Source: a virus
Taxonomy: Duplodnaviria > Caudoviricetes
Strand: one strand, 5' to 3'
Length of the DNA: 56,900 nucleotides
IMG/VR virus record: IMGVR_UViG_3300048597_000631
Span: 1 to 56,900 of that record
Under the pieces are notes generated by a model, which was not told where the DNA came from, ran no database searches, and saw only the letters and a list, made by a program, of their open reading frames with translations. The position numbers and the translations under genes are program-made. The stretch's first letter is position 1; every line of letters begins with the position of its first letter. This document shows, one piece after another, positions 34,172 to 56,900 of the stretch.

Positions 34172-34509
34172 GGTTGCTCCTCGAGTTGATACCTGCCCTG
34201 GGCGATCTGCTCGCGCTGGCTGCGGATGCGCTGGCGCGACTGGTGCGCAGCTTTCAGCGCCGCCGGCGCCCAGGCCGGCACAAACTGGCGCGCGCCGGTT
34301 TTGCCCAGGCTGGCCAGCTCGCCGGCCTTCACCAGCTCGCGCAGGTAGTGCCGCACGTGGCTGGTCGATGCAATCTGCGTGGCGCTGCATATCTCGCGCA
34401 TGCTCGGCGGCCGGCAGTTGCTGACGAAGTAGCTTTCGATGAACGCAACGATCCTCGCGCGCCGTTCGTGGTTCACCTGGTAAGGCTTGAGGTTGTGGAC
34501 GTTCATCAT
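34168..34509 (-). CDS. LexA-type N-terminal wHTH protein (no peptidase domain)
   Basis: 'RIVAFIESY...PPSMREI...IASTSHVRHYLREL..AG'. Confidence 0.82.
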   Translation of the reverse strand: MMNVHNLKPYQVNHERRARIVAFIESYFVSNCRPPSMREICSATQIASTSHVRHYLRELVKAGELASLGKTGARQFVPAWAPAALKAAHQSRQRIRSQREQIAQGRYQLEEQP

Positions 34510-35723
34510 CGTGGCTGAACTTTGCCGGCCAGCCGCTGGGCGGCCAGTCGCTGCTTTTCTGCGCGCTCATCGTCGGTGTAGGCCACCTGCGGCCGGCGAA
34601 ACGTCCTGCCGCTCGTTTGCTGGCTCTCGGCGGCTTTGCGCTCCCGTTCGGCGCGCTTTCGCGCGGCGTCGTCGCTGCCCTGAACCGGCACATCCGGCGG
34701 CGCTTCAAACAGCACCATCTGGCCGGTTTCGGCGTAGTCCTCGAGTATCTTCACCATCACCGCCGGCGCGCTCTTCACGTCCTTGCGCGCGGCAGTGCGT
34801 TCCTGGGCCTTGCGCATGTCGGCCAGGATTTCCTCGGCGCGCTCGGCTGAGAATGACTTTGCGGCCAGCGCGACGATGTGGCCGGCCAGCGCCGTCCGCT
34901 TTGGGTTGCCGATGCCGAACTCAGCCAGCAGGTTGTTCACCCGCTTCCGGAAATCCGCTAAAAGTTCAAAGTTCAGATTTTGGTCAGCATGCATGCATGC
35001 ATGCAGTGATTCACTATTACTAGTACGTACTTGTACAGAATGCATGGTTGAACTTTGAACTTTGAACTCTGAACTTTGAACTTTGAGACCGCTTTCGGGC
35101 GCTTTTATGCTCAAATCTGAACTTTGAGCCGTGGCTAAAAGTTCAGAGTTCATTTTCTCCGGTTCGTTTATGGAAGAATCTGAACTTTGAGAAGTTGAAA
35201 GTTCATTTTTTATGCTCAAATCTGAACACTCTGGAGAGTGCAGCACGCTTTGAACTTTGAACTCTGAACTTTGAAGATGTTGATCTTCGTGGCCGGCGGG
35301 CGGCGTGGGGTGTGCTGGGGGGTGCTGGGGTGTGCTGGGGGGTGCTGGCGCAAGGGGGGCTAGTGTTGGGGCGCTCATGCCGGGTGATGTTGCATCCGGC
35401 TGGGCGTGCTGAAAAGCGGCCTGTTCTGGCGATGCATTGGCCTGTTCTGGCCTGTGCTCTGGCCGGGTCAGCAGGTATTCAGTGGCGCCGTGCTTGTGGC
35501 GCACGCGCGCGATCCAGCCGGCCTCTTCCAGTTCGCCGAGATATTTCACGACGAGTGAATAGGCGCAGCCGGCCTGCGCGGCAATCGCCTTCCCGCTGGA
35601 GGTGAGCCGGCGCGCGGCGCCGGCGGTGCGGGAAAGATGTTCATACAGCAGCTGGGCTTTTCTGCCGAGCCACGGTGTTTCGTTCTGCAATGTCGTGACC
35701 TCGTCGGTCACAGGGCTTGACAT
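34506..35723 (-). CDS. Replication initiator (N-terminal wHTH) with internal iterons
   Basis: wHTH 'SGKAIAAQAGCAYSLVVKYLGELEEAGWI'; internal heptamer repeats as in lambda O-type genes. Confidence 0.72.
   Translation of the reverse strand: MSSPVTDEVTTLQNETPWLGRKAQLLYEHLSRTAGAARRLTSSGKAIAAQAGCAYSLVVKYLGELEEAGWIARVRHKHGATEYLLTRPEHRPEQANASPEQAAFQHAQPDATSPGMSAPTLAPLAPAPPSTPQHPPAHPTPPAGHEDQHLQSSEFKVQSVLHSPECSDLSIKNELSTSQSSDSSINEPEKMNSELLATAQSSDLSIKAPESGLKVQSSEFKVQSSTMHSVQVRTSNSESLHACMHADQNLNFELLADFRKRVNNLLAEFGIGNPKRTALAGHIVALAAKSFSAERAEEILADMRKAQERTAARKDVKSAPAVMVKILEDYAETGQMVLFEAPPDVPVQGSDDAARKRAERERKAAESQQTSGRTFRRPQVAYTDDERAEKQRLAAQRLAGKVQPR
34958..35275. repeat. Putative replication origin (TGAACT[T/C] iterons)
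   Basis: Five tandem heptamers at 35049-35083, three at 35251-35271, inverted copies near 34961 and 35138, 20-bp direct repeat 35103-35122/35208-35227, AT-rich segment. Confidence 0.75.
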
Positions 35724-35829
35724 GCGTTGCAAGATAATTACAATCTTGCACGGTGTTCACTGCCCGTGACCACCAGTCCTAAGTCCGATCGATTTCCTGA
35801 GGAGGATGCGTCGAGCGGACTTTTTTTTT
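35717..35829 (+). ncRNA. Putative counter-transcribed antisense RNA (~80 nt) with its promoter, over the initiator leader
   Basis: TTGACA(35717)-N16-TACAAT(35739); hairpin AAGTCCGATCGA...TCGAGCGGACTT followed by a long T run ending at 35829. Confidence 0.6.
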
Positions 35830-35832
35830 GCC

Positions 35833-36135
35833 TTACGCCGGCACAAGTTCTTCGATGGGGACATACTCAGTCCTGCTTTTTGCGTTTTTGGTTGCGCCGG
35901 CGGCCTCTTTTGGGGTGAGCCCCAGATATTCGCGCGCCGCCGTTCTCCACACTGCTGCACGGTCAACCTTCGCATTCGGGTTTTCGCGTTTTATTTCATC
36001 GACATAGGCGTCGATGGCTTCGTCGAGTTCTGGGTCGACGCGGATCGTGTCGCGCTTTTCTGCGGGAAGCTCCCGCTTGATCTGCTGCTTCAACCGATTC
36101 AACACTTCTTCATTGATCGCTCGCTTTTTTGTCAC
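35833..36135 (-). CDS. Ribbon-helix-helix / Arc-like regulator
   Basis: 'TIRVDPELDEAIDAYV...VDRAAVWRTAAREYL'; AGGAGG SD before GTG. Confidence 0.7.
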   Translation of the reverse strand: MTKKRAINEEVLNRLKQQIKRELPAEKRDTIRVDPELDEAIDAYVDEIKRENPNAKVDRAAVWRTAAREYLGLTPKEAAGATKNAKSRTEYVPIEELVPA

Positions 36136-36164
36136 TCTTAATCGCCTCCTGACAGGTTTCAATA

Positions 36165-36197
36165 GTGACTATAAGGTCACGTCGGACATTTTGTCAA
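36165..36197 (-). promoter_or_regulatory. Leftward early promoter with GTGAC-N6-GTCAC operator
   Basis: TTGACA-N18-TATAGT; operator 36165-36180 overlaps the -10. Confidence 0.65.
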
Positions 36198-36204
36198 GTG
36201 CAAC

Positions 36205-36234
36205 AAAAAACCCCGTTCGATTGAACGGGGTTTT
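36205..36234 (-). terminator. Bidirectional intrinsic terminator
   Basis: AAAAAACCCCGTTC-GATT-GAACGGGGTTTT. Confidence 0.8.
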
Positions 36235-36250
36235 GTGAACGCGTTTCAGG

Positions 36251-36568
36251 CTACTCATACGTCAGCGCCAGCATGTGCCAGGTTGCCTCGCGCCATTCCA
36301 TCCGGCATCTGTAGTGCATGCGCAGCATGGCGCCGAAGCTGTTTTCGGCATCAACATACGAATACACATTCCACTTGCTGGTGTTGGCTTGATCGATCTC
36401 GATGCGCGCTTCATCCGCCGGCGGAAATTTTGCAGTGGCTGGCGCTTTGAGTTTGGTCAACACGAAGTCGTAACAGGTGCGCACAGCCAGCGTCTCACGT
36501 GAGGGCGGCGGCTGGTTGCAGCTCGTGAGCAGCCAGAAGACCAGAAGAAGATAGGTTGTCGTTTTCAT
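36251..36568 (-). CDS. Lipoprotein
   Basis: LTSC lipobox; 'LKAPATAKFP...SYVDAENSFGA' family motif. Confidence 0.75.
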   Translation of the reverse strand: MKTTTYLLLVFWLLTSCNQPPPSRETLAVRTCYDFVLTKLKAPATAKFPPADEARIEIDQANTSKWNVYSYVDAENSFGAMLRMHYRCRMEWREATWHMLALTYE

Positions 36569-37311
36569 TTCTCTTCAATCGAGCCCATCTCCAGCGTCCG
36601 CACTGTTTGCAATCCATACAGACGATAGGGCACGCCCGCGAACTCGGTTTCTTTCACCACGCCAGGCTCAGTGATCGTTCCCATTGTGGTAGCCACCCAC
36701 TCGCGCGCGTCGCGCGGCTGCGCGTTGTCATACGGCATGGTGGCGATGAATCCCAGAATGCCCATTGCAGCCAGATCCTCGTCGCTATACTGGATCACCG
36801 TCGCATCGATGTAATCGACCGACTGAAGCGACCTGCCCCACACTTCCACGCTCGACTCATATTGCAGCGCCGGCTTCTCGCTCTTGCACCGCCACACGTA
36901 GTAATTGCCCGAGGGCGTCGGCTCGGCGGCCTCGCACGTGAAGTCGCGCTGCTCCAGGTTGACCGTGATATCTGCCGGCTGCAACCCAGGGATCGTGCCG
37001 CCGCCGGCGCTCACCTGATCAGGCGCAGCGACCGCTGCCACCGTCGGCGCCGCTGTGGGGGCTTCTGCCGGCGCAGCGGTCGCTTGTTCGGTCGGGGCTG
37101 CCGCAGGTGGCTCGGTGGCCGTCGGTTCGGTGGCCGTCGGCTCGATGAGCACGTCTTGCACAGCTGGGGCGGGCGTTGCCGTCGCCGGCTGGCTCGGCGA
37201 CAGCACTGCGCCGAGCACGCTCAGCCCGCAGCAGGCGATGACGATCGCAAGTGCGCCAATGAGGATTTTCGAAAGGGTGCTACGTTTGGGTTTGGAAGAT
37301 GTGTTTTGCAT
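36565..37311 (-). CDS. Membrane-anchored surface protein with PT-rich linker
   Basis: N-terminal TM with 'IACCG', PT repeats, globular C-terminal domain. Confidence 0.75.
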   Translation of the reverse strand: MQNTSSKPKRSTLSKILIGALAIVIACCGLSVLGAVLSPSQPATATPAPAVQDVLIEPTATEPTATEPPAAAPTEQATAAPAEAPTAAPTVAAVAAPDQVSAGGGTIPGLQPADITVNLEQRDFTCEAAEPTPSGNYYVWRCKSEKPALQYESSVEVWGRSLQSVDYIDATVIQYSDEDLAAMGILGFIATMPYDNAQPRDAREWVATTMGTITEPGVVKETEFAGVPYRLYGLQTVRTLEMGSIEEK

Positions 37312-37442
37312 GGGATCCTCGACAACAGTGATGCCAAGGGATGCAAACACATTACACAGCGTGCGACATCCCCCGCCTCACCTGGTCTAGGGTGATAGTC
37401 GCACATCGCCGGCGCCGGCGCATCGGTCAGAGGCATGAATGC

Positions 37443-37475
37443 AAAAGAAAACCCCGCCAGTGCCGGCGGGGTAAA
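37443..37475 (-). terminator. Intrinsic terminator after the GHKL gene
   Basis: ACCCCGCC...GGCGGGGT stem followed by TTTCTTTT on the minus strand. Confidence 0.7.
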
Positions 37476-37501
37476 CATTGCCTTGCGAATCTGCTGTGTC
37501 T

Positions 37502-39454: not shown

Positions 39455-39486
39455 GAGCAATTAAGGCTTTTGTTAGTAATAAGTGG

Positions 39487-40385: not shown

Positions 40386-40414
40386 AGGAATACAGTTTAA
40401 AACTCATTACTTTT

Positions 40415-40490
40415 GTGACCACAAAGTCACTATTGACAAAACGTCAGACATTTGCTAAAGTCACTTTTGTATCCAAAAGTTCACTATTGA
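40415..40490 (+). promoter_or_regulatory. Rightward early promoter and operators
   Basis: GTGAC-N6-GTCAC at 40415-40430; TTGACA(40433)-N17-TAAAGT; further GTCACT/TTCACTATTGA half-sites. Confidence 0.72.
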
Positions 40491-42691: not shown

Positions 42692-42759
42692 GCCGCGTTG
42701 CCGGCGCGTGGTGAATGAATACCCCCCACTACGCGCCGGCTCTCCTGGAGGAGAAAGAC

Positions 42760-43947
42760 ATGGAATCCATTCAATTCGAGGCGATGCTATCGGTGCTCAA
42801 CCGAATCGCCATTGCGCTGGAAGCGTCAAAGCCGGCGGAGATCGAGACGATCACGCTGCCCATCGGCGCATACAAAGACTTCGACTGGTCGCAGATCAAT
42901 TGCCGCGTGTTTGCGGAGGATGAATTCGGGGTCGCGCAGGTGTTTTGCCTCAACGACGGACGCGTCTACACGCGGCGCACCAACGACAAATTCGGGTCTG
43001 AGATTTGGTATTCGCGCGGCGACGGCAAAACTGCCGACGGCACGCCGCGCTACAAACGCCTGATCGAGTTTCGAGAGATCAAGGATGCAGAGCCAATGGG
43101 CCGCAAAGCCGAGCAGGCCCTCAAGCACGCACCCGCTGTGCAGTCGCCGGCACTCAATCCACCTGTTGCCACACTGGGCGAGCGCATTTCTGCACAACAA
43201 CCGCCGGCAGCGCAACAGGTGATCGAGCAAAAACCGACTCTGCCGCCGCCGCCAGAGCGGCAAGAATTGCCGGCAGCGCTGCGCAAAGATTGGCTGCACT
43301 GGCACGACCAGGCGGCCAAGTTCGGCACGGTGCCGGCTGAGCTGGGCCTGTATGACACCGACACCATCGCGAGCGTCAACGAAAAGATCGGTCAGCTTAT
43401 CAAGCTGGTCGAGATCGGCGCGGAAGACGCAGCGCTGCAACTGTACGACAAACTGGTCATAGCGCTGGCCGACGCGAAAGAGGCCGGCGTCGACGTGCCA
43501 GCTGAGTTCTACGAAACTGCCGGCGTTGCGATCAGCGTGATCGAAATGCGCATCGGCACGATCGGCAACCTGATCGCGGCGAAGCAGGGCGCGCAGGTGA
43601 TGACGCAGCAGCAACCGCAAACGCAAATCGCCGGCGTGACTGGACAGCAGGTCATCAATGCGCTTCAGGACGCTGCCGCCAAAAGCGCCAGCCGCGTGAT
43701 GAGCAACAGCATGTCGTTCGACACGGTGAGCGCGCTGGAATACATCGCCGGCAACGAGGCCATGCGCCACGCATTCTGCGGGCGCGTGTTCGGGCAGCCG
43801 AAGTTCGGCGAGCTGAAAGACGCGCAGAAATACGCCCTCTTTAGCTGGCTGAAGCCGGCGCGCGTGAACGGCAAGGCCCAGCCCACCAATCAGAAGGCTG
43901 CAAGCGAATTCGCCGCGGTGATGGCGATTCACGAGGTGCCGGCGTGA
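42760..43947 (+). CDS. DdrB-like ssDNA-binding/annealing protein with extended C-terminus
   Basis: 'LPI...DFDWSQI','GRVYTRR','IWYSRG','YKRLIEFR' parallel Deinococcus DdrB motifs in order. Confidence 0.6.
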   Translation: MESIQFEAMLSVLNRIAIALEASKPAEIETITLPIGAYKDFDWSQINCRVFAEDEFGVAQVFCLNDGRVYTRRTNDKFGSEIWYSRGDGKTADGTPRYKRLIEFREIKDAEPMGRKAEQALKHAPAVQSPALNPPVATLGERISAQQPPAAQQVIEQKPTLPPPPERQELPAALRKDWLHWHDQAAKFGTVPAELGLYDTDTIASVNEKIGQLIKLVEIGAEDAALQLYDKLVIALADAKEAGVDVPAEFYETAGVAISVIEMRIGTIGNLIAAKQGAQVMTQQQPQTQIAGVTGQQVINALQDAAAKSASRVMSNSMSFDTVSALEYIAGNEAMRHAFCGRVFGQPKFGELKDAQKYALFSWLKPARVNGKAQPTNQKAASEFAAVMAIHEVPA

Positions 43948-44213
43948 CACAGGCTGCTGCATGGCGATCCATCCCCCGCGCGCAGGCGCCGGCACGCCGG
44001 CCAGGCGGCCCGAAGAGCAAATACATCGCGCCGATCAACGCCGCGCTGCGATCCACCGACCACGTGATCGAGATCGACTGCGCCGGCAAACAAGCGCGCA
44101 CCGTCTACGCCGCCGTGAAGACCGCCGCAAAGCGCATGGGCGCGGCCCAGCGCGTCAGCGCGTGGATCCTCGACGGCAAGGTCTACGTGGCACAGAAGGA
44201 GTCAGGACAATGA
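43944..44213 (+). CDS. Small basic hypothetical protein
   Basis: Translationally coupled at both ends. Confidence 0.6.
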   Translation: MTQAAAWRSIPRAQAPARRPGGPKSKYIAPINAALRSTDHVIEIDCAGKQARTVYAAVKTAAKRMGAAQRVSAWILDGKVYVAQKESGQ

Positions 44214-45187
44214 CCGACCATCTCATCTTCCTCAACCACACCCAGCTCGCGCGGCACACGCACAACATGCGCCGCGCATATCCCGCCACGGCCGTGCGCA
44301 AGATGGGCGCAAGCCAGCTCGACCGCGCGCGCGAAGGCAAGCCGTGCTGCCTGCAGCCGCTGGTGGTCACCGCCGGCGCCGGCATTGAATATGACCCGCA
44401 GCAGCACACCGCCTTCACCATCGTCGCTGGCCACCTGCGCCACGCCGGCAATGCCTGGCTTGGCGAGAAAGCGCCGCCGCTGCCGTGCATCGTTCGCTAC
44501 TATGCCACCGAGGCCGACATGCTCGCCGACATGGGCACCGAGAACGGCGTGCGCGAGGATGTGGGCGTGATCGGCTGGGCGCAATACCTCAAAGGCCAGA
44601 TCGCCGCCGGCGTGCCGATGCATCAGTTGTTGCGCCGCACGGGTCTGCCGCTGTCGCGCGTCGAGCGCCTGCTCGATGTGGCTGAGATGCCCGGCCTCGT
44701 GCAGGGCGTCTTCGACCGCGGCGAATTGCCGCTGCTAGCCGTCGTGCCGCTGAAGTGGATCACCGATCGCGCCCAGCTGATCGAGCTGGCCGTCAAGCTG
44801 GGTGAGAAGCGCGCCACGCTGTCGCAGGTCGAGATGGCCGTGAAGGCCCTGCGCACCGGCACGCCGACCGAGCGCAAATATCAGCGCAAGGTGCACGCTG
44901 TGCGGGCAGAGATTCCCGCGCTCGATGGCGTGCCAGCCGCGTTGCCGGCCACCCTGGGTGATGTGCGGCGTGGCGCGGCAAAGGCCTGCGCTGCGTGCGA
45001 AATCGGGCGCGACCTGCCGCTCGACGAGCCGGCCTGGCGCATCGCCGTGGAAGCAGCGTCGAACACGTGCAAGGCCTGCGACCTGAAGGCTTTCGAGCAG
45101 GTGTGCAAAGCCTGCCCGCTGGCCGAGGCCATGCGCAACGTGGTCAAGGCCATCAAAGCCGAGGTGAAAGCCGAGGTGCCGGCGTGA
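44210..45187 (+). CDS. ParB-like protein with C-terminal Cys cluster
   Basis: 'LQPLVV...IVAGHLR...PCIV...EN.VRED' ParB/Srx motifs, HTH, three CxxC. Confidence 0.75.
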   Translation: MTDHLIFLNHTQLARHTHNMRRAYPATAVRKMGASQLDRAREGKPCCLQPLVVTAGAGIEYDPQQHTAFTIVAGHLRHAGNAWLGEKAPPLPCIVRYYATEADMLADMGTENGVREDVGVIGWAQYLKGQIAAGVPMHQLLRRTGLPLSRVERLLDVAEMPGLVQGVFDRGELPLLAVVPLKWITDRAQLIELAVKLGEKRATLSQVEMAVKALRTGTPTERKYQRKVHAVRAEIPALDGVPAALPATLGDVRRGAAKACAACEIGRDLPLDEPAWRIAVEAASNTCKACDLKAFEQVCKACPLAEAMRNVVKAIKAEVKAEVPA

Positions 45188-46383
45188 CCATCGACACGCT
45201 GCTCACCCGCGTCGCCTGGGCAACCGACAAGAGCCGCCGGCGCGCCGCGGCACGCCGCTGGACGAAGGCCGAGATCGTGCGGCTGCATGACCTGGTCGGC
45301 AAGCGCAATGTCACGGCCATCGCCCGCGAGCTGGGCCGCTCGCGCAACGCCGTCGCGTCGAAGCTGATGCAGCTCGGCTACCGCATCAAGCGCGACGTGC
45401 AGCAGCCGGTCGGCCTCAACGCCCGCGAGCTGAGCGCGCTGATCGACGTGCCCTACGAGCAGGTTGTGCGCGACATCAACGCCGGCGTGATCAAAGGCGC
45501 GTTCCGTGAAAGCAAGAAGGACTTCATGGTGCCGTGGCGCAGTGTGCGGTCATATGAGAATCGCATGCAGCGCATCCGCACCCGCCGCGAAAAGGCCATT
45601 GCGCGCATCAAGGAAGAGACGATCACCAAGCAGGAGGCCATGCAGATCCTCGGCCTGAGCGAGACGCACCTCACACGCTACCTGCAGGGCAAGATTGTCA
45701 AAGCGTGGAAGATCCCGACGATCTTCACCACCGTCACCAAGTGGCGATGGGAATGGCTGGTGTCGAAGCGCGACGCCGAGCGTGTGCGCGACCTGCGCGC
45801 TGCCGGCAAGCTCCACGTGCGCATGCGCAAAAAGGCATATCGCAAGATCGCCGACGCGGCAAACCAGACGGTGCTGCAGATGCGCCGCGAGCAGCGCGCT
45901 GGACAGCGATCTGCCAAAACACTCAAGGCATTCGGGCCGCGCAATGCCGTGGTGCCAGGTCACTACACCATCGCCCAGGTTGCGCAGATCGTCGGCATCT
46001 CGACGCAGCAGGTTTACGAGCACAGCCGCAACGGCCGGCTGCAGTCCGCAAGCGTGCGCGTGGGCCGGCGCGCCTTCCGCACGATCACACCCGAGGCGCT
46101 CGAAGCCTACAAGGCCTGGCACGCGCGCCCGGTCAAGGCGACCGGCCCGATGGAGGCATGGCGCACAGGCCGCAACGCCGTGCACAAGGCCGGCCTGCTC
46201 ACCACGCGCGAGTCGGCTGATCGCTACGGCCTGGTCTTCGGCTCGCTGGTGTGCGCTGCGCGCGATGGACGAGTGAAGCATCGCAAGATCAAAAACCTCT
46301 TGGCTTTCAAGCCTGAGGATGTTGAAGCATACGCAGCCGGCATGCGCCGGCGCAAGGGAAAGAGTTTGAAGGAGGAAGCATGA
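45184..46383 (+). CDS. Multi-HTH (excisionase/MerR-like repeats) DNA-binding protein
   Basis: 'WTKAEI...IARELGRSRNAV' plus several HTH_17-like repeats. Confidence 0.72.
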   Translation: MTIDTLLTRVAWATDKSRRRAAARRWTKAEIVRLHDLVGKRNVTAIARELGRSRNAVASKLMQLGYRIKRDVQQPVGLNARELSALIDVPYEQVVRDINAGVIKGAFRESKKDFMVPWRSVRSYENRMQRIRTRREKAIARIKEETITKQEAMQILGLSETHLTRYLQGKIVKAWKIPTIFTTVTKWRWEWLVSKRDAERVRDLRAAGKLHVRMRKKAYRKIADAANQTVLQMRREQRAGQRSAKTLKAFGPRNAVVPGHYTIAQVAQIVGISTQQVYEHSRNGRLQSASVRVGRRAFRTITPEALEAYKAWHARPVKATGPMEAWRTGRNAVHKAGLLTTRESADRYGLVFGSLVCAARDGRVKHRKIKNLLAFKPEDVEAYAAGMRRRKGKSLKEEA

Positions 46384-47363
46384 ACGTCATTGGTCTGGAT
46401 CTGGGCATGGGCGCCACGAAATTGTGGAGCGCAAACGGCGGCAAGGTCATCCTGTCGCAGGTCGCCATGCCGACCCGCGAGGACATCGACCTGAAGGCGC
46501 TCGGCATGAGCGCGAAGCGCAAGCCTGTCGTCATCCTGAACGGCATGGGCCGGCTGCTGGTGGGCGAAGGCGCCCACGACGCCGGCACGCCGATCGAGCG
46601 GCTCGATTACGAGCGCCTCACCGGCTCACCTGAAATGAAGGCGCTGGTCTACGCCGCGCTGGCCACCCAGGACACGAGCGAGACGGACCCCATCGCCTTG
46701 ATGGTCGGCCTGCCGCTGGGCCTGGCCGCCGGCGACGAGTCCAAGCGCCGCATCGATGCCGTGAAGACCTGGCTGACCGGCGCGCACGTGTGGAAGGCCG
46801 ACCGGCGCGAGCACGTGGCCGTCGTCGACCGCGTCGGCTGTGTGTCGCAGGCGCACGCTGCATATCTCGACTGGCTGCTGAACGACGATGGCAAGCCCAT
46901 GGGCCGGCCCGTGAAGGGCAGAGAGATCGCGGTGATATCCGTCGGCTTCAACACCATCGAGATGGTCGTCCTGCGCGACAACCAGGCCATCAGTCGCTTC
47001 GTCGCCGGCGAGAAGCTGGGCGTACGGCGCTTTCTCGAGCTGGTGAACGAAGGCCGGCGCGGGTTGTTCTCCCTGGGTGAGCTCGACATCAAGCTGCGCG
47101 CCGGCGGGCTCGACGAGCCGGTGGCGCAATCGAAATGGAGCGCCCAGGTGCACGGCCACATCGAGCGCACCTGGTCGGATGCCGCTGGCCGTTTCGATCA
47201 GGTCATCGCCGTCGGCGGCGGTTCGCTGCTCCTGCATGACGCGCTCGTCGATCTGTTCGGCGGCCGGCTGATCGAGAGTGACGAGCCGGTGCTCAGCGTC
47301 GCGCGCGGCCTTTACAAGTTTGGGCTGATGCAAAAACTGAACGTGAAGGAGGCGGTGAAGTAA
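46380..47363 (+). CDS. ParM/StbA-like actin ATPase
   Basis: 'IGLDLGMGATK','VGLP','SVGFNTIE','VGGGS' actin-fold motifs. Confidence 0.85.
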   Translation: MNVIGLDLGMGATKLWSANGGKVILSQVAMPTREDIDLKALGMSAKRKPVVILNGMGRLLVGEGAHDAGTPIERLDYERLTGSPEMKALVYAALATQDTSETDPIALMVGLPLGLAAGDESKRRIDAVKTWLTGAHVWKADRREHVAVVDRVGCVSQAHAAYLDWLLNDDGKPMGRPVKGREIAVISVGFNTIEMVVLRDNQAISRFVAGEKLGVRRFLELVNEGRRGLFSLGELDIKLRAGGLDEPVAQSKWSAQVHGHIERTWSDAAGRFDQVIAVGGGSLLLHDALVDLFGGRLIESDEPVLSVARGLYKFGLMQKLNVKEAVK

Positions 47364-47581
47364 TGGGACGCAAGCCGGCGCCGGTGCGGCTGGTAAAGCG
47401 TGTGATCAAGCTCACGCTGCATCCAGAGCGCGAGCGGCACCTGATCGACCTCATCGATCACGCCCCGCACAAGGGCCGGCTCGTCATTGACGCGCTCGAA
47501 GGCCGGCGACAAGTGGAAGCGCCGGCGCCGGCGGATGAAAGCGACGAGCTGCGCGAGCAGCTTGCAGAGTTCTTGATGTAA
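47363..47581 (+). CDS. ParR-like adaptor
   Basis: 72 aa directly after ParM; basic N-terminus, acidic amphipathic C-terminal helix. Confidence 0.6.
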   Translation: MGRKPAPVRLVKRVIKLTLHPERERHLIDLIDHAPHKGRLVIDALEGRRQVEAPAPADESDELREQLAEFLM

Positions 47582-49991: not shown

Positions 49992-49993
49992 CC

Positions 49994-50795: not shown

Positions 50796-51136
50796 TGCCA
50801 CGCAACATGAGCTTCATGCTCACCACACAGCAGGTGATCGCCGGCACAAAGGACGTGACGCGCCGGCTTGGCTGGTGGACGCTCCGTCCAGGCGACCAGC
50901 TCAGCGCCGTTGAGAAGGGCATAGGCTTGAAGCGCGGGCAGAAGATCGTCAAGCTGCGCCGCATTGAGGTGGTCTCGATCCGACATGAGCGTCTGGACGC
51001 CATCACGCCAGAGGACGTGGCGCGTGAAGGATTCCCGGAGATGACGCCGCTGCAGTTCATCGAGATGTTCTGCGAGACACATCAGGGCTGCACGCCGGCC
51101 ACGATTGTGAATCGCATTGAATTCAAATATCTATGA
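50795..51136 (+). CDS. ASCH-domain protein
   Basis: 'GTKDVTRR...GD...ERLDAITPEDVAREGF' ASCH motif. Confidence 0.85.
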   Translation: MPRNMSFMLTTQQVIAGTKDVTRRLGWWTLRPGDQLSAVEKGIGLKRGQKIVKLRRIEVVSIRHERLDAITPEDVAREGFPEMTPLQFIEMFCETHQGCTPATIVNRIEFKYL

Positions 51137-52170
51137 GCACACCTACGCCCGACATCCGCACTCGCGTCGACGATGCTTTCAACGGCTTCATCGGCAACAC
51201 GCCGGCGGTGTATGCCATCAAGCGCAGTCTGCGCGTTGCGCTCACGCACACGCCGCCGCGTATGGATCGCGTGTTCTTGTTCGTCGGCGGGCCGTCGCTG
51301 GGCAAGACCACGATCGCCAAGCGCACCGCCGGGGCGCTCGGCCTGCCGTTCCTTCAGCTCGACGGCACCGCCATCAAGACCCGCGAACAACTGTTCGATG
51401 CGCTCGAAGACATGCTCGTCGACAGCGGCCTGCCGACGAAGCGGGTGGGGGAGCGCAGCGGCATGCCGATGATCGAGTATCCGCCCTGCGCCATCTTCAT
51501 CGACGAGATTCACACCCTCGGCGCCGGCGTGCAGAACGCGCTGCTGACTGCGCTTGAAGCCAACGACCGCAGCGTCGTGCTATCGCGCGCCGGCGTGCGC
51601 CGCGTGGCCGTGGTCGGCAACGTCCTGTTCATGTTCGCCACCACGAAGCAGGGCCTGCTCGACGACGCCTTCCGCAGCCGCTGCACCGAGATACTGCTGC
51701 AGCCGTATTCGCAAAGCGAGATCGAGGAGATGGTGCGCCTGAACTATCGCGATCTGCCGGCGGAGGCCGTGCCGCTGGTGGCCCGGGCGTCTCGCCTGGT
51801 GCCGCGCCGTGCCTTCATGCTCGCGCGCGATGTGGCCGAGGAGATCGCCGACACTGGAAAGCCGGTCGACACGTGCTTCGCGCATGTCATGTATGGCCTC
51901 GGCATTGTCAGCCGCAACGGACTGACGCATGACGACCTCGCATATCTCGACATCCTGGTCAACGAGCGCCGGCCGCTGGGTGAGCGCGTCATCATCGCCT
52001 CGCTCGAAGGCATCGAGAGTGAGCGTGTACGAGACGAGATCGAGCCTTATCTGAAACGCCTCGGCTACATCAAATTGGCCAAGGACGGCCGGGTGATCAC
52101 GCCGGACGGCCTCGACGCGCATAGTCGCATCAAGGCCCGCCTGGCCGAGCTTCCGCTGGGGGTGAATTGA
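51133..52170 (+). CDS. RuvB-like AAA+ ATPase
   Basis: 'FIGN', Walker A 'GGPSLGKTT', 'FIDEIH','ATT','FRSR', C-terminal 'IEPYL..LGYI....GRVIT' wHTH. Confidence 0.85.
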   Translation: MSTPTPDIRTRVDDAFNGFIGNTPAVYAIKRSLRVALTHTPPRMDRVFLFVGGPSLGKTTIAKRTAGALGLPFLQLDGTAIKTREQLFDALEDMLVDSGLPTKRVGERSGMPMIEYPPCAIFIDEIHTLGAGVQNALLTALEANDRSVVLSRAGVRRVAVVGNVLFMFATTKQGLLDDAFRSRCTEILLQPYSQSEIEEMVRLNYRDLPAEAVPLVARASRLVPRRAFMLARDVAEEIADTGKPVDTCFAHVMYGLGIVSRNGLTHDDLAYLDILVNERRPLGERVIIASLEGIESERVRDEIEPYLKRLGYIKLAKDGRVITPDGLDAHSRIKARLAELPLGVN

Positions 52171-52661: not shown

Positions 52662-52664
52662 GGC

Positions 52665-53300: not shown

Positions 53301-53374
53301 ATTTGCTTAATTTAAGTCCAGTTAAAGGAAGCAATGAGCCTTACATTGTGATTGACGCAGTAAGGAAGTGTTCC

Positions 53375-53872
53375 ATGGAAGAAATCCAGTTTGATTACAA
53401 AGGCAAGACGCATGCCGTCGCAGTTGATGACGATGCACTAGAGACATTGAACAAGCATCAATGGTATGGGTTCGAATCGCCTGGTGGCTATCTTTATTGC
53501 GCACGATTCTCGGGCGACTTTTCCAATCCTGTTTGGTTTTTGCATTGGGACATTATGGGCAAGCCTGCGAAGGGGTATCACGTTGACCATAGAGACGGCA
53601 ACACACTAAATTGTCAGCGCGTCAACATGAGGATATGCACTCATCGCGAGAACCTGACAAACAGGAAGCGGCACAAAAACAACACGTCGGGATACAAGGG
53701 CGTAACACGCAACAAGGGCAAGTGGGGTGCACAGATAAAGTCCAACTATAAGTTGATTTGGTTGGGAACATTTGACGATCCAGTGTCTGCTGCATTGGCC
53801 TATGACAGAGCTGCACGTGAAATCTTTGGAGAGTTTGCGAATCTCAACTTTCCAGACGCGTCAAAGTCGTGA
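53375..53872 (+). CDS. HNH-AP2 homing endonuclease
   Basis: 'VDHRDGNTLNCQRVNMR' plus 'SGYKGV...LGTF...AALAYD.AA...FGEFA.LNF'; lower GC. Confidence 0.9.
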   Translation: MEEIQFDYKGKTHAVAVDDDALETLNKHQWYGFESPGGYLYCARFSGDFSNPVWFLHWDIMGKPAKGYHVDHRDGNTLNCQRVNMRICTHRENLTNRKRHKNNTSGYKGVTRNKGKWGAQIKSNYKLIWLGTFDDPVSAALAYDRAAREIFGEFANLNFPDASKS

Positions 53873-53892
53873 TCGTAAATTCAAGTTTGAGA

Positions 53893-54861
53893 ATGGAGAA
53901 ATCACCGATTGTTCAGAACCCCGCCGGCGCACCGGACACGACCACCGTGTCTGACTCAACGGCGCGTTATATCCGCGCCTCGCGTGCCTACAACACCCGC
54001 CGCGCTTACCAGTCCGATCTGCGCGACTTTCGCGAATGGTGTGAGGACAACAACCGTGCGCACTTCCCAGCGGTGCCAAAGACGGTTGCTGATTACCTTG
54101 CATACCTGGCTGATCAAGGCATGAAGGTCTCGACGATCGAGCGGCGCAACGTGGCCATCAGCGAGGCGCACAAGTCTGCCGGCGTGCCGAACCCGACCGC
54201 GACAGAGATCGTGCGCAAAGCCATGAGCGGCATTCGACGAGAACACGGCGCGCCCAGGCGCAAGGTGCGCGCCGTGACCGTGCGCGAGCTGCGCGCAATG
54301 TGTGAGGCCATGCCTGACACGCTCGCCGGCTATCGAGATCGCGCGATCCTTTGTGTGCAGTTCGCCGGCGCCATGCGCAGGTCTGAGCTGTCGAGCCTGA
54401 TCGTCGAGGATGTGGAGTGGGGTGTGGATGAGGTAGCGCTGACCATTCGACGCTCGAAGACCGACCAGGCCGGCGAGGGCATGCGCAAAGTGCTGCCGGC
54501 CTCAAGCGATCCAGCTATCTGCCCTGTGCGGCTGCTCAGGCGATGGCTGACCACCGCCGGTATTGACGACGGCGCGGTGTTTCGTGGGGTCGATCAGCAC
54601 GGCCACGTGGGCGCCGGCGCGCTGACGCCTGGCAACATCGCGCTGGTCTGGAAGCGCGCAGCCGAGCGGGTGGGGATTGCAGCAGATCGGGTGAGTGGCC
54701 ACAGCGCGCGGCGCGGCTTCATCACAGAAGCATTCAAGGCTGAGGTGGCCGAGGCGGACATTCAACAGGTCACTGGACACAAGTCCATCGCCGTCTTGCG
54801 CGACTACCGCGCCGATGCCGGCCAGGCACAGCGCAAGGCCGTGAACAAAGTGATGGGATAA
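53893..54861 (+). CDS. Cre-like tyrosine recombinase
   Basis: SAM-like 'NTRRAYQSD', 'RDRA...RRSEL','SKTDQ','GHSARRG','TGHKS...Y'. Confidence 0.9.
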   Translation: MEKSPIVQNPAGAPDTTTVSDSTARYIRASRAYNTRRAYQSDLRDFREWCEDNNRAHFPAVPKTVADYLAYLADQGMKVSTIERRNVAISEAHKSAGVPNPTATEIVRKAMSGIRREHGAPRRKVRAVTVRELRAMCEAMPDTLAGYRDRAILCVQFAGAMRRSELSSLIVEDVEWGVDEVALTIRRSKTDQAGEGMRKVLPASSDPAICPVRLLRRWLTTAGIDDGAVFRGVDQHGHVGAGALTPGNIALVWKRAAERVGIAADRVSGHSARRGFITEAFKAEVAEADIQQVTGHKSIAVLRDYRADAGQAQRKAVNKVMG

Positions 54862-54874
54862 AGCCCTTTCGGCG

Positions 54875-54909
54875 GTCGTGATTGATAAGCTTTTATTATC
54901 AATCGCGAC
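54875..54909. other. lox/dif-like recombination site
   Basis: 14-bp arms GTCGTGATTGATAA / TTATCAATCGCGAC (1 mismatch) around asymmetric 7-bp spacer GCTTTTA, 13 bp after the recombinase stop. Confidence 0.7.
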
Positions 54910-54967
54910 ACGCGGACGATTTTTAGACGATCAGGGCATTCCGATATAAGGAAACTTACATCGGAAT

Positions 54968-55171
54968 ATGGGAGAGCGAATGGCAGAAGAGATTTACATC
55001 GTGCGCGACCAGATCACGCCGGTGAACGAAGTGACAATCAAGCAGTTGATCGAAGAGAACATCAAGTTGCGCGCCGACATCTCGCGCATCGGCCACGAGC
55101 GCGACGACATGGCCAGAGCTGCGCAAGAACTTCAGGCGCGGCTGAGCCGGCTGGAGGATGACCGCAAATGA
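54968..55171 (+). CDS. Small coiled-coil protein
   Basis: Heptad pattern; coupled to the next ORF. Confidence 0.55.
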   Translation: MGERMAEEIYIVRDQITPVNEVTIKQLIEENIKLRADISRIGHERDDMARAAQELQARLSRLEDDRK

Positions 55172-55359
55172 CCGACAAGCGCAAACTCCCCCACCCTCGC
55201 CGGCCTGGCCGGCCCAAGCGCGCACCGAATGTTGCGCGGCTGCCAGTCGTCGCGCGCAAGCGCCTCGACACGTATCCACCGCGCGTGCAGCGCCTCCTGC
55301 GCGCCATCGCCGCCGCTGAAGCCCAGCGCCAGCCAGCACCACAGCCTGAGCCGGCATGA
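55168..55359 (+). CDS. Small basic protein (possible recombination directionality factor)
   Basis: ATGA overlap with the integrase. Confidence 0.45.
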   Translation: MTDKRKLPHPRRPGRPKRAPNVARLPVVARKRLDTYPPRVQRLLRAIAAAEAQRQPAPQPEPA

Positions 55360-56900
55360 CACGCATCGCCTTGTATCTTCGCTACTCTAGCGAGGAGCAG
55401 TCCGAGGGCTGGAGCTTGGAAGCGCAGGAGCGCGGCTGCCGGTCGTTCGTCGATGGCAAGGCCGGCTGGGCCATCACCGCGATTTACACCGACGAGGCGC
55501 GCAGCGGCAAGAGCACCGACCGTCCCGGCTTTCAGGATATGCTCAAAGCCGCGCACGCCGGCGCGTTCGATGTGCTGGTGTGCCACAAGCTCGACCGCTT
55601 CTCGCGCAACCTGGTCGACGTGCTGCTCACGCTCGACGATCTGCAGCGGCATGACGTGACCTTTGCCAGCGCCACTGAGCCAATTGACTTCACCACGCCG
55701 CTGGGCAAGGTCGTGCTCATCATTCTGGCGTTCTTCGCCGAGTGGTATCTGCAAAACCTCAGTGCCGAGACGACGAAGGGCAAGCGTGAGCGATTCCAGG
55801 CCGGCCTGTGGAATGGCGACCTGCGCTATGGCTACACCCGCGGGGACGACGGCAAGCCCCAACTCGCAGACGAATCGCGCCACGTGCTCACGGCCTACCA
55901 GCTTTGCGCCGCCGGCAAGAGCGACCAGCAGGTCGCAGACGCCATCAACGCCGCCGGCGCCCGCACGCTGCGACTGCGCACGAACAGCAAAAAGAAGGCG
56001 ACGGTCGACACGCCGATCGACGAGCGCCGGCCATGGACGAAAGACAGCGTTGGCGCGCTCTTCACGCCGGAGGCCGCCGCGTTCTACAGCGGCCACACCA
56101 CCTACATCGGCGAGGGCGAGCGCAAAAAGCGCAAGCGCGACCGGCGCATGGAGATCATCCACGACACCCACCCAGTCGTCATTGATGACGAGCTGGCGCG
56201 CAGCGCGCTGGCCGCCCGCGTCAAGCGGCGCAACCCGGGCCGGCTGGCCACCACCCCCCTGAAGCACGACTACATTTTCGGCGAGCGCGTGGCCGTGTGT
56301 AGCGTTTGCGGCAAGCCCATGCGCGCCTGGCACAGCACGACGAGCAAGCGCGCCTACTATCGCTGTGCAGCTGCCCAGCGCGGCGAAACCTGCGCGGCGC
56401 CGGCGCGCCCTGTGGCCGAGGACGTGCTTGTCGAAGCGATGCACGATTACATCGCCGACCTGGAATTGCCTGACGACTGGCGCGAGGCTGTGCGCGAGGT
56501 CAACGCGCTGGATGATGCGCGCCTGCAGGCGATGGAGGCGCGTGAGAAGCTGGCCGGTCAGCTCAGGCGCATCAACTACCAGATCAACGCCGGCATGGTG
56601 CTCGACGATGACCTGCCCAGCATGGAGCGCCGCGCGCGGGCGCTGAAGGAGCAGATTGAAAACATGGTGATCCCGGCGCCGGCGAAGACCGTGGAGAGCG
56701 GGGAGCGCATGGTGCGCCTGCGCCAGATCTGGCCGACGGCCAGCAAATACATTCGCCGCGAGATCGTGCAGGCCATCTGCGCGGCGGTGGTGGTGGACAC
56801 CGAGCGCCGGCGGATTGCTGGTATCAAGCCGCATCCGGAGTTCGTGCTACTATTCGAGTGCACGCGGCTTGAACGCGACGGCGACCTGTGGCGCATATGA
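55356..56900 (+). CDS. Large serine recombinase (integrase)
   Basis: 'YLRYSS..Q','SG...RPGF','LDRFSR', recombinase domain, Zn ribbon 'CSVCG...YYRC...C', coiled coil. Confidence 0.93.
   Translation: MTRIALYLRYSSEEQSEGWSLEAQERGCRSFVDGKAGWAITAIYTDEARSGKSTDRPGFQDMLKAAHAGAFDVLVCHKLDRFSRNLVDVLLTLDDLQRHDVTFASATEPIDFTTPLGKVVLIILAFFAEWYLQNLSAETTKGKRERFQAGLWNGDLRYGYTRGDDGKPQLADESRHVLTAYQLCAAGKSDQQVADAINAAGARTLRLRTNSKKKATVDTPIDERRPWTKDSVGALFTPEAAAFYSGHTTYIGEGERKKRKRDRRMEIIHDTHPVVIDDELARSALAARVKRRNPGRLATTPLKHDYIFGERVAVCSVCGKPMRAWHSTTSKRAYYRCAAAQRGETCAAPARPVAEDVLVEAMHDYIADLELPDDWREAVREVNALDDARLQAMEAREKLAGQLRRINYQINAGMVLDDDLPSMERRARALKEQIENMVIPAPAKTVESGERMVRLRQIWPTASKYIRREIVQAICAAVVVDTERRRIAGIKPHPEFVLLFECTRLERDGDLWRI

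What the first reader, a model, noticed from the sequence alone, without database searches (positions are those of the whole stretch)
34506..56900. Complete plasmid-maintenance kit alongside a serine integrase
Seen: an iteron-containing initiator with a putative antisense RNA, a ParM-like ATPase with a ParR-like neighbour, a ParB-like protein without a recognisable ParA, a Cre-like recombinase with a lox-like site, and an intact large serine integrase. Known: P1-type phage-plasmids use rep, par and Cre/lox, whereas integrating phages use an integrase. Inference: the element may switch between integrated and episomal states, or use the actin-like system to position replicating DNA during lytic growth (as with AlpC of corynephage CGP3).
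Basis: partly seen in the sequence, partly recalled or inferred. Interest (0 to 1): 0.7.

Follow-up and report, generated by a model that had tools for sequence, protein, structure and literature searches.

The report
Integrated phage carrying plasmid-style maintenance genes
This is a complete tailed prophage, probably of a Chloroflexi (Anaerolineae) bacterium, that sits integrated in the chromosome yet also carries plasmid-type replication, DNA-positioning and dimer-resolution genes, most likely for handling its circular DNA after excision rather than for living as a plasmid.

Summary
They are an iteron-bearing initiator, a plausible antisense RNA, a ParM-like ATPase with a ParR-like neighbour, a ParB-family protein without ParA, a Cre-like recombinase with a lox-like site, and an intact large serine integrase. 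The window is a whole virus record that IMG/VR classes as a provirus. Two of its own proteins lie on a 534,352-bp contig, so this copy is integrated. In four close relatives the integrase stop is followed directly by tail genes, the unintegrated (attP) arrangement. Here the genome is opened exactly between integrase and tail genes, which implicates the serine integrase in integration. The "kit" is not inherited as a unit. Among five related records ParM occurs in 2, the ParB-like gene in 1 and the initiator in 0. The ParM/72-aa pair also sits in two other integrated prophages that carry tyrosine integrases. My best reading (confidence 0.55) is that these modules replicate, resolve and position the excised or infecting circular genome, as shown for AlpAC of prophage CGP3 and SrpMRC of SXT/R391 elements. 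A facultative plasmid state stays possible (about 0.2). I rate this a new member of a known kind, of moderate interest.

The parts
226..262 (.). Probable left prophage junction (attL region). Similarity to the sequence that follows the integrase in relatives begins here.
   Evidence: Alignment A6 and the printed sequences. To the right of about 250 the window matches the region downstream of the integrase in L016-L019. To the left it has a 74-aa ORF (1-225, GC 47.6%) in place of the integrase.
34168..34509 (-). 113-aa protein with a LexA-type winged-helix DNA-binding domain, directly downstream of the initiator gene
   Evidence: PF01726 LexA_DNA_bind E 9.7e-8
34506..35723 (-). Replication initiator (lambda O-like layout): N-terminal winged-helix domain, iteron-encoded middle part, C-terminal domain
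   Evidence: phrog_270 and phrog_391. There are 13 family members in all. The invariant residues are the winged-helix motif and the iteron-encoded peptide.
34961..35276 (.). Origin-like region inside the initiator gene: arrays of the heptamer TGAACTY in both orientations flanking an AT-rich stretch
   Evidence: 11 hits against 0.11 expected; GC 42%; the frame is kept open
35717..35826 (+). Candidate counter-transcript: a promoter-like site (35717-35744) and a 77-nt RNA (35750-35826) with a terminator hairpin and U-run, antisense to the leader of the initiator mRNA
   Evidence: no Rfam family. Expression is not shown.
35833..36162 (-). 109-aa basic protein upstream of the initiator, preceded by the promoter-like site 36197-36168 (-). 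It looks like a ribbon-helix-helix protein by eye only.
   Evidence: ORF; promoter TTGACA-18-TATAGT, 11 of 12; no family in Pfam or NCBIfam
40409..40490 (+). Two 28-nt operator-like repeats that bracket the only good promoter-like site of the right arm (40433-40461)
   Evidence: (family D4)
42715..43947 (+). DdrB-like single-strand DNA-binding/annealing protein
   Evidence: PF12747 E 4.7e-8
44210..45187 (+). ParB/Noc-family protein (N-terminal domain plus ParB helix-turn-helix) with a Cys-rich C-terminal part. No ParA partner.
   Evidence: no ParA
45184..46383 (+). 399-aa protein with several helix-turn-helix domains. Its stop overlaps the ParM start.
   Evidence: HTH_17 E 4.6e-15 and others
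46380..47363 (+). ParM-type actin-like ATPase
47363..47581 (+). 72-aa ParR-like adaptor candidate with a conserved C-terminal helix
   Evidence: 16 family members, all 71-74 aa; alignment A1; predicted complex
51133..52170 (+). RuvB-like AAA+ ATPase, syntenic with the ParM module in L001 and L003
53869..54861 (+). Cre-like tyrosine recombinase with an intact catalytic set
54875..54909 (.). lox-like site: 14-bp inverted arms (13 of 14 complementary) around a 7-bp asymmetric spacer, starting 14 bp after the recombinase stop
54968..55359 (+). Two small genes (67 and 63 aa) conserved together with the integrase in relatives. Their role as directionality factors is inference only.
55356..56900 (+). 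Large serine integrase, the terminal gene of the provirus record
   Evidence: Resolvase E 1.7e-35, Recombinase, Zn_ribbon_recom; complete ORF

Best explanation
The window is a complete temperate tailed phage, probably of an Anaerolineae (Chloroflexota) host. It was captured as a prophage integrated by its terminal large serine integrase through an attP that lies between the integrase and the tail genes.

The plasmid-like genes most likely act on the circular genome after excision or infection, in a transient plasmid-like phase:
- The O-like initiator fires the iteron origin that lies inside its own gene. Its synthesis is possibly tuned by a small upstream protein and a counter-transcript.
- The Cre-like recombinase resolves multimers at its adjacent lox-like site.
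- ParM filaments, coupled to the DNA by the 72-aa adaptor, position or separate the copies. This would help replication and prevent loss at cell division, as shown for AlpAC of prophage CGP3 and SrpMRC of SXT/R391 elements.
- The ParB/Noc-family protein is an orphan DNA-binding accessory of unknown target.

What is shown: gene identities, the integrated state, the permutation relative to relatives, and the mosaic distribution of the modules. What is inferred: timing of expression, DNA binding by the adaptor, and the roles in resolution and positioning.
For: Integrated state:
- The record is a provirus.
- Its own initiator (P0122) and 72-aa protein (P0135) lie on a 534,352-bp contig.
- The window starts on an ATG and ends on the integrase stop codon.

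Integration by the serine integrase:
- In 4 of 4 close relatives (integrase 86-92% identical) the integrase stop is followed by a conserved stretch of about 170 bp and then by tail genes.
- In L018 and L019 those tail genes are homologous to the window's left-end tail genes.
- Similarity to the window's left end begins at about position 250.

A real phage: terminase, portal-like, head and tape-measure genes are present.

ParM:
- Actin-fold model with pLDDT 90.1 and pTM 0.89. Top Foldseek hits are solved ParMs (pSK41 ParM E 2.1e-19; Dh-cParM1 TMq 0.80).
- The phosphate and adenosine motif residues are invariant across 44 sequences.

Adaptor:
- Predicted complex score 0.72, best of 3 controls 0.00. 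This mark was reached by 58 of 80 solved complexes and 2 of 110 mismatched pairs.
- The runs agree in at least 96% of contacts, and the partner's pLDDT is at least 66.
- The interface is formed by partner residues 59-72.
- A ParM-ParR peptide complex has been solved (4a62, listed). The pass may therefore reflect likeness to that structure rather than show that this pair binds.

Module in other integrated prophages:
- G001:C7 has ParM at 78.5 kb of a 148,665-bp Anaerolineae contig, with terminase, portal, head and tail genes and a tyrosine integrase nearby.
- G002 is a provirus, 93% complete, that also carries ParM.

Early-operon position: one promoter-like site with operator repeats at 40409-40490, tightly packed or overlapping genes, and a terminator-like site at 48179.

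Precedents, from passages read:
- PMC4446434: AlpAC connects circular CGP3 DNA to filaments, is induced early, and its mutants have lower circular copy number.
- PMC4489591: srpMRC stabilises an integrating element.
Against: - No centromere-like repeat array was found next to the ParM operon. The adaptor's DNA-binding fold was not confirmed: the monomer model has pLDDT 61 and shows no strand.
- An iteron replicon preceded by a small protein and a counter-transcript is the classic layout of plasmid copy control. That would be unnecessary for purely lytic replication (recalled knowledge of pMV158 and R1 control).
- The initiator gene lies on the strand opposite to the early operon, beside moron-like genes, so it might be expressed in lysogeny.
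- Nothing here measures expression, copy number or excision.
- CheckV rates the record only 54% complete, which does not fit my reading that the genome is whole.
Confidence: 0.55

Rival explanations
1. Facultative phage-plasmid. The phage can lysogenise either by integration (serine integrase) or as a low-copy plasmid. In the plasmid state it would be maintained by the iteron replicon under counter-transcript control, ParM/ParR-like partition and Cre/lox-like multimer resolution, and it could switch between the two states.
For: - All three plasmid functions are present and intact.
- The layout small protein, counter-transcript, initiator resembles plasmid copy control (recalled knowledge).
- Four relatives are assembled in the unintegrated arrangement.
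- The literature accepts elements that oscillate between the two states, and P1-like elements found integrated (passages of PMC7969092 and PMC10879196).
Against: - This copy, and two other ParM-bearing relatives, are integrated.
- The modules are not co-inherited: the initiator is in 0 of 5 related records, the ParB-like gene in 1 of 5 and ParM in 2 of 5.
- ParM sits in what looks like the repressor-controlled early operon, not in a separately expressed maintenance locus.
- The attP-form contigs are equally well explained by virion or replicating DNA.
Confidence: 0.2
2. No joint function. The 'kit' is a chance mosaic of independently acquired accessory genes. The Cre-like enzyme would be a second or alternative integrase, and the ParB-family protein a transcriptional silencer or a factor aimed at competing elements. 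The ParM pair would be a selfish portable cassette, and the initiator simply the lytic replicon.
For: - The parts are distributed independently among relatives.
- A 39%-identical homologue of the Cre-like protein lies at the very end of provirus G002, which has no serine integrase. There it probably is the integrase.
- L016 carries two Cre-like genes.
- ParB-family proteins such as KorB and Noc have roles other than partition (chains listed).
Against: - The ParM/72-aa pair is well conserved (64-94% identity) and stays syntenic with downstream genes in three relatives, which argues for a function useful to the phage.
- The lox-like site is single-copy and uninterrupted in an integrated genome. 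The Cre-like enzyme therefore did not integrate this copy.
Confidence: 0.2

Closest known systems
AlpC/AlpA of Corynebacterium glutamicum prophage CGP3 (PMC4446434, passages read)
   Same: An actin-like ATPase and a small co-transcribed adaptor encoded by an integrated prophage. In CGP3 they are induced early, tether circular phage DNA to filaments and raise circular copy number.
   Different: The gene order here is motor then adaptor, as in plasmid parMR; the paper says alpAC differs from that order. The host phylum is different. Sequence relatedness to AlpC was not tested. No binding site was identified here.
SrpMRC of SXT/R391 integrative conjugative elements (PMC4489591, passages read)
   Same: A ParM-type partition system carried by an element that normally sits integrated. 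It stabilises the excised plasmid-like form and lies near the integrase gene.
   Different: Those are conjugative elements rather than phages. srpC lies upstream of srpM, whereas no such repeat array is seen here.
Phage P1 (rep, par, Cre/loxP) and P1-like elements found integrated (PMC10879196, passages read)
   Same: A phage with replication, partition and Cre/lox-type functions. The recombinase here is closer to Cre than to any other solved recombinase. Integrated derivatives of P1-like elements exist.
   Different: P1 uses ParA/ParB, not ParM, and has no serine integrase. The site here is 14-7-14 rather than the 13-8-13 recalled for loxP. There is no DNA similarity to any record in the phage or plasmid collections.
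Lambda O/ori with the oop RNA, and plasmid counter-transcript control (pMV158 CopG/RNAII). Both are recalled knowledge, not checked in papers.
   Same: The origin iterons lie inside the initiator gene. A short antisense RNA gene lies immediately upstream of the initiator, and a small protein gene precedes it.
   Different: The initiator matches the O-like PHROG only weakly (E 5.3e-5). No P-like helicase loader was identified. The candidate RNA covers only the intergenic leader and does not overlap the upstream coding region.

Membership tests
Type II (ParMRC) partition system | Actin-fold ATPase with conserved nucleotide-binding motifs | tested here: met
   ALP_N E 1.4e-9. Residues G9, G11, K14, S187, G189, T192 and G279-G281 are invariant across 44 sequences. 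The model has pLDDT 90.1 and its top structural hits are solved ParMs. NCBIfam ParM scores 57.7 bits, far below its cut-off of 417, so this is a distant member.
Type II (ParMRC) partition system | Small adaptor encoded downstream of ParM whose C-terminus binds ParM and whose N-terminus binds DNA | tested here: inconclusive
   Binding through residues 59-72 is predicted: score 0.72, best control 0.00; the mark was reached by 58 of 80 solved complexes and 2 of 110 mismatched pairs; the runs agree in at least 96% of contacts; partner pLDDT is at least 66. Likeness to the solved ParM-ParR peptide complex may explain the pass. The DNA-binding fold is not shown: the monomer model has pLDDT 61.
Type II (ParMRC) partition system | Centromere-like repeat array (parC) next to the operon | tested here: not met
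   No repeat array was found in 40100-48800. ParM's start overlaps the upstream gene. Relatives L001 and L003 do have a promoter with an inverted repeat upstream of ParM.
Lambda O-type initiator with the origin inside its own gene | Iterons and an AT-rich stretch inside the initiator's own open reading frame | tested here: met
   The iteron-encoded peptide is invariant or nearly so in all 13 family members.
Lambda O-type initiator with the origin inside its own gene | Sequence membership in the O family, and a P-like partner | tested here: inconclusive
   phrog_391 E 5.3e-5 and phrog_270 E 1.6e-7, both covering the N-terminal part only. No Pfam or NCBIfam family was hit. No helicase loader was recognised.
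Cre/lox-type tyrosine recombination module | Tyrosine recombinase with a complete catalytic set and full-length similarity to Cre | tested here: met
   Cre E 2.4e-19 over residues 42-314, against 1e-4 for a XerC-like chain. In the alignment the query has R, K, H-x-x-R and Y at the places recalled as catalytic in Cre, and H where Cre has W.
Cre/lox-type tyrosine recombination module | An adjacent site made of two inverted 13-14-bp arms around a 6-8-bp asymmetric spacer | tested here: met
   The site is at 54875-54909 and is single-copy, with 0 expected by chance. It is present in 3 of 3 loci that carry the gene (window, L016, L017) and absent from 2 of 2 loci without it (L018, L019). Recombination at the site was not tested.
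ParB/Noc family | ParB N-terminal domain plus ParB helix-turn-helix | tested here: met
   The family profile matches ParB, Spo0J and Noc chains at E 2e-40 to 1e-36. Of 47 members, 44 match HTH_ParB and 26 match ParB_N. The window's own copy passes no Pfam threshold and scores 19.5 bits against a cut-off of 58.45 for TIGR00180.
ParB/Noc family | A ParA partner and a parS-type site | tested here: not met
   No ParA was found. Five NBS-like palindromes exist in the window, but they also occur in relatives where no ParB-like gene was detected.
Large serine integrase | Resolvase catalytic domain, recombinase domain and zinc ribbon, in a complete ORF | tested here: met
Phage-plasmid | Extrachromosomal maintenance during lysogeny | tested here: not met
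   This copy is a provirus on a 534,352-bp contig. That says nothing about other cells or other conditions.

The most novel reading that the evidence does not exclude
A dual-lifestyle phage of Chloroflexota. The same genome would lysogenise either by serine-integrase integration or as a low-copy plasmid. The plasmid state would use a counter-transcript-controlled iteron replicon, actin-type partition and a Cre/lox-type resolvase. The integrase and its two small companion genes would set the switch.
Probability: 0.2. Interest if true: 0.7.

Novelty: new member of a known kind. Interest (0 to 1): 0.42.

Why it matters
Phages of Chloroflexota are almost unstudied. Two literature searches listed no paper whose title dealt with ParM in prophages of this phylum (listings only).

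This element and its relatives show that actin-type DNA-positioning cassettes are recurrent accessories of integrating phages well outside Actinobacteria. That widens the AlpAC and SrpMRC precedent.

It also offers compact parts that could be tested as tools: a new Cre-like recombinase with its 35-bp site, a large serine integrase with a nearly mapped attP, and a self-contained initiator/origin.

If the facultative-plasmid reading were true, the element would be a natural system for studying how a phage chooses between chromosomal and plasmid lysogeny.

Tried and rejected
- Megablast of 34000-56900 against the phage and plasmid collections: no match.
- tRNA scan: none, so there is no tRNA-type attachment site.
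- Rfam on the whole window: no family.
- Exact 60-base search for the parent contig in metagenome contigs: nothing. The tool says the window's own records may be left out.
- ORF 1-225 searched in 301 genomes of the class of G001: no match, so whether it is host or phage stays open.
- Initiator relatives in viral contigs: none. The initiator was also not found in 5 related records.
- Integrase relatives in metagenome contigs: 26 loci, all 53% identity or lower. Only L020 was compared further; the other 25 were not used.
- Public runs: 4 runs of one study hold only 0.07-0.15 of the sampled words. Laying them gave short low-depth contigs, mostly of relatives, with no joints and no information on the ends or on copy number. 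This says nothing about junctions.
- Second palindrome 54938-54967 (13-4-13) as the lox-like site: rejected. It is present in L018 and L019, which lack the recombinase gene in the fetched loci, and absent from L016 and L017, which have it.
- The five ATTTCC-NN-GGAAAT palindromes as binding sites of the ParB/Noc-like protein: weakened. They form the stems of minus-strand terminator hairpins. They also occur 3, 2 and 3 times in G304, G305 and G306, where no ParB-like gene was found; those records are 51%, 44% and 87% complete.
- Shufflon idea (a tail-fibre switch run by the tyrosine recombinase): the tail protein 1479-4253 has a Shufflon_N match. However, the recombinase-site arms occur nowhere else, and no inverted cassettes were found in 1-4600. 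Rejected.
- Search for a parC-like array near ParM: none.
- Monomer model of the 72-aa protein: low confidence.
- Supplementary files of the phage-plasmid papers were not opened. Their element lists could bear on whether similar Chloroflexota elements are already catalogued.

Full report
**What the window is.** The 56,900-bp window is the whole record held for this genome. The genome tool calls it a virus record that IMG/VR classes as a provirus, with a CheckV completeness estimate of 54%. GC is about 62%. No tRNA genes were found.

The left 30 kb, on the minus strand, encodes a tailed-phage structural module:
- large terminase, 21273-22817;
- a 933-aa protease/major-head fusion;
- portal-like and MuF-like head proteins;
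- a tape-measure protein, 9346-11538;
- two very large tail proteins, 4250-8956 and 1479-4253.

The right arm (40552-56900, + strand) and a minus-strand block (34168-40144) hold the genes of the finding. There is no nucleotide-level relative in the phage or plasmid collections. Homologues of the ParM-like protein that carry a source name are called ParM/StbA family proteins of Anaerolineae, Thermoflexales and Chloroflexi genomes assembled from metagenomes. The one hit in the species-genome collection is an uncultured Anaerolineae bacterium. The host is therefore probably a member of Chloroflexota.

**Checking the observation.**

*Initiator.* ORF 34506-35723 (-) matches phage replication-initiation families through its N-terminal part (phrog_270 E 1.6e-7; O-like phrog_391 E 5.3e-5). 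Inside it, between 34961 and 35276, are arrays of the heptamer TGAACTY in both orientations around an AT-rich stretch. The 12-mer TGAACTTTGAAC with up to one mismatch occurs 11 times, all there, against 0.11 expected. Over 34940-35300 (GC 42%) the initiator frame has no stop, while the other five frames have 4-10 each. The family is small, with 13 proteins found. In their alignment the invariant positions are the winged-helix motif and the peptide encoded by the repeats (QSS.F.VQSS), even at 37-43% overall identity. This is what a DNA-level constraint on iterons inside the gene would produce. The layout matches that recalled for lambda O and its origin.

*Antisense RNA.* A + strand promoter-like site (TTGACA-16-TACAAT, 11 of 12) overlaps the initiator's start. 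Downstream of it, 35750-35826 folds into two hairpins, the second followed by a run of U. The MFE is -31 kcal/mol against -20 for shuffles (z -3.55), and 1 of 200 shuffles folds as well. It lies between a 109-aa gene (35833-36162, with its own 11-of-12 promoter-like site at 36197-36168) and the initiator. It would therefore be antisense to the initiator's leader. No Rfam family matches, and expression is untested.

*ParM and its neighbour.* The 46380-47363 product matches ALP_N (E 1.4e-9) and the PHROG 'partition protein' family over its full length (E 9.4e-25). Its matches to NCBIfam ParM and PRTRC protein D fall far below their cut-offs. There are 226 relatives at E up to 0.001. The nucleotide-binding residues are invariant in an alignment of 44. 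The AlphaFold model (pLDDT 90.1, pTM 0.89) is closest to solved ParMs: pSK41 ParM at E 2.1e-19, Ta0583, Clostridium pCBH ParM, CorM, and Dh-cParM1 with TMq 0.80.

The next gene overlaps ParM's stop. It encodes a 72-aa protein of no known family, with 15 homologues of 71-74 aa and an invariant C-terminal Q..L...LM. The complex prediction gave 0.72 against a best control of 0.00. That mark was reached by 58 of 80 solved complexes and 2 of 110 mismatched pairs. The runs agree in at least 96% of contacts, and the partner's pLDDT is at least 66. Only residues 59-72 of the partner touch ParM. A ParM-ParR peptide complex has been solved (4a62, listed), so this pass may show likeness rather than binding. 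The monomer model of the 72-aa protein is poor (pLDDT 61), and its DNA-binding fold is not established.

*ParB-like protein.* The long ORF 43961-45187 begins with Arg/Pro-rich residues that look out of frame. The probable gene is 44210-45187. It matches a PHROG ParB-like family (E 9.7e-8), TIGR00180 weakly (E 6.4e-4) and Spo0J (E 0.027). An exhaustive search found 224 family representatives. A profile of 47 of them matches ParB, Spo0J and Noc structures at E 2e-40 to 1e-36 over the N-terminal and helix-turn-helix domains. Of the 47 members, 44 match HTH_ParB and 26 match ParB_N, although the window's own copy passes no Pfam threshold. Six Cys are invariant or nearly so in the C-terminal part. 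ParA-type families are absent from all six frames of the window, while the same searches ring in 14 of 14 control genomes.

*Cre-like recombinase and lox-like site.* The 330-aa tyrosine recombinase is far closer to P1 Cre (E 2.4e-19, residues 42-314) than to any other solved recombinase; the next, a XerC-like chain, scores 1e-4. In the alignment the catalytic Arg, Lys, His-x-x-Arg and Tyr are present, with His where Cre has Trp (the residue roles are recalled). Fourteen bases after its stop lies a 35-bp site, 54875-54909. It has 14-bp inverted arms (13 of 14 complementary) around a 7-bp asymmetric spacer. The site is unique in the window, with 0 expected. The arms are perfect in L016 and L017, which carry the same gene at 93-94% identity. 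The site is absent from L018 and L019, whose fetched loci lack the gene. A second palindrome (54938-54967) shows the opposite distribution, so it belongs with the downstream gene.

*Serine integrase.* 55356-56900 has the resolvase, recombinase and zinc-ribbon domains. It is complete, and its stop codon is the last triplet of the window.

**Integrated or not.** Three results agree that this copy is integrated.
- The record is classed as a provirus.
- The window's own initiator and 72-aa protein are on record on a contig of 534,352 bp.
- Both ends of the window fall exactly on gene boundaries, as expected for a cut-out.

Four viral contigs carry an integrase 86-92% identical. In all four, the integrase stop is followed by about 170 bp of conserved sequence and then by tail genes on the opposite strand. 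These genes match Sipho_Gp37, gp53-like and Sipho_tail in L015. In L018 and L019 they are homologues of the window's own left-end tail proteins (sequences). The window's left end aligns with that conserved stretch only to the right of about position 250. To the left it has a 74-aa ORF of 47.6% GC where the relatives have the integrase. The window is therefore the same circle opened between integrase and tail genes. This is the arrangement expected if the serine integrase recombined an attP at that place. The exact crossover cannot be read, because the window stops at the integrase and the parent contig could not be retrieved.

**Is it a kit?** The parts do not travel together.
- Among five related viral records, the ParM gene is present in 2 (G002, G003).
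- The ParB-like gene is present in 1 (G003).
- The initiator is present in none.
- G306 is 87% complete and has the integrase, but none of the three.
- The Cre-like gene is present in G003 and G304, twice in the latter's locus L016. A 39% homologue lies at the very end of provirus G002, which has no serine integrase. There it is probably the integrase.

The ParM/72-aa pair, together with several downstream genes and a RuvB-like ATPase, is syntenic in L001, L002 and L003. L001 lies in the middle of a 148,665-bp Anaerolineae contig. Terminase, portal, major head, tape-measure and tail genes lie on one side and a tyrosine integrase on the other. So three of the three ParM-bearing elements with enough context are integrated prophages, and they use different integrases.

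**Likely working.** In the window the right arm has one good promoter-like site (40433-40461), bracketed by two 28-nt operator-like repeats. From 42715 the genes abut or overlap as far as a terminator-like site at 48179. This suggests that the DdrB-like, ParB-like, multi-HTH, ParM and adaptor genes are early genes under repressor control. That is inference. It fits what was shown for AlpAC of CGP3: early induction, tethering of circular phage DNA to filaments, and a two-fold lower circular copy number in mutants (passages). It also fits srpMRC of SXT/R391, which stabilises the excised form of an integrating element (passages).

I therefore favour a transient plasmid-like phase after excision or infection. 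In that phase the initiator replicates the circle, the Cre-like enzyme resolves multimers at its site, and ParM with its adaptor positions or separates the copies.

The main point against this reading is the replicon's layout. A small protein, a counter-transcript and an iteron initiator form the classic plasmid copy-control arrangement (recalled). The block also sits on the other strand, next to moron-like genes. Stable episomal lysogeny therefore remains possible. The literature already allows for such oscillating elements and for P1-like elements found integrated (passages). The public runs found could not settle it.

**Novelty.** Each module is a distant new member of a known family. The idea of partition systems in integrating elements is established. 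What is new is the host phylum and the particular combination. Two literature searches listed no paper whose title deals with ParM in prophages of Chloroflexota (listings only).

Noticed in passing
window 317-330, 11577-11590, 21169-21182, 31079-31092, 33624-33637: The palindrome ATTTC-N4-GAAAT occurs five times, against 0.04 expected. It forms the core of long GC-rich hairpins that read as strong terminators on the minus strand. Three of the copies lie in a 61-nt repeat that is 84-92% identical. Four of the five copies match the published Noc-binding site at 12 of 14 positions and the copy at 21169 at 10 of 14. The palindrome also occurs in relatives where no ParB-like gene was found.
   Followed up: partly
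window 30370-30546 and 30892-31068: A 177-nt direct repeat, 92% identical, with copies 522 bp apart. It lies at the start of the + strand block 30526-33909, whose five ORFs match no Pfam family.
   Followed up: no
window 36251-40144 (-): A lower-GC block (53-57%) of moron-like genes. It includes a 652-aa HATPase_c_3 protein that resembles BbrUII/HgiDII-type restriction enzymes (NCBIfam E 3.6e-26; PADLOC REase_II E 1.1e-11) and predicted secreted or membrane proteins. No methyltransferase was recognised beside it.
   Followed up: partly
window 52665-53872 (+): A Mom-like protein (E 9.3e-5, below the Pfam cut-off) followed by an HNH-AP2 endonuclease, just upstream of the Cre-like gene.
   Followed up: no
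window 1479-4253 (-): The 924-aa tail protein has a Shufflon_N match (E 3.7e-10, residues 731-793). No shufflon-type repeats or inverted cassettes were found.
   Followed up: yes
window 18369-21170 (-): A single 933-aa ORF combines matches to a head maturation protease, an Ig-like domain and, weakly, a major head protein. This looks like a protease/capsid fusion.
   Followed up: no
window 1-225 (+): The first gene of the record (74 aa) has 47.6% GC against 61.8% for the window. It has no family and no match in 301 genomes of the class of G001. It may be host or foreign DNA left of attL.
   Followed up: partly
window 34987-35005 and 35306-35348: Inside the initiator gene, beside the iterons, are a (GCAT)x4.8 run and a (TGGGGGGTGC)x4.3 tandem repeat. 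Their role is unknown.
   Followed up: no
L001 9905-9960 and L003 9860-9915: In two relatives the ParM gene has its own promoter-like sequence with an embedded inverted repeat (ACGAAAT...ATTTCGT). This is a candidate adaptor-binding site that is missing upstream of the window's ParM.
   Followed up: no
whole record: CheckV rates the record 54% complete, although structural, regulatory, replication and integration modules are all present. The circular permutation seen in relatives also leaves no room for a missing half.
   Followed up: no
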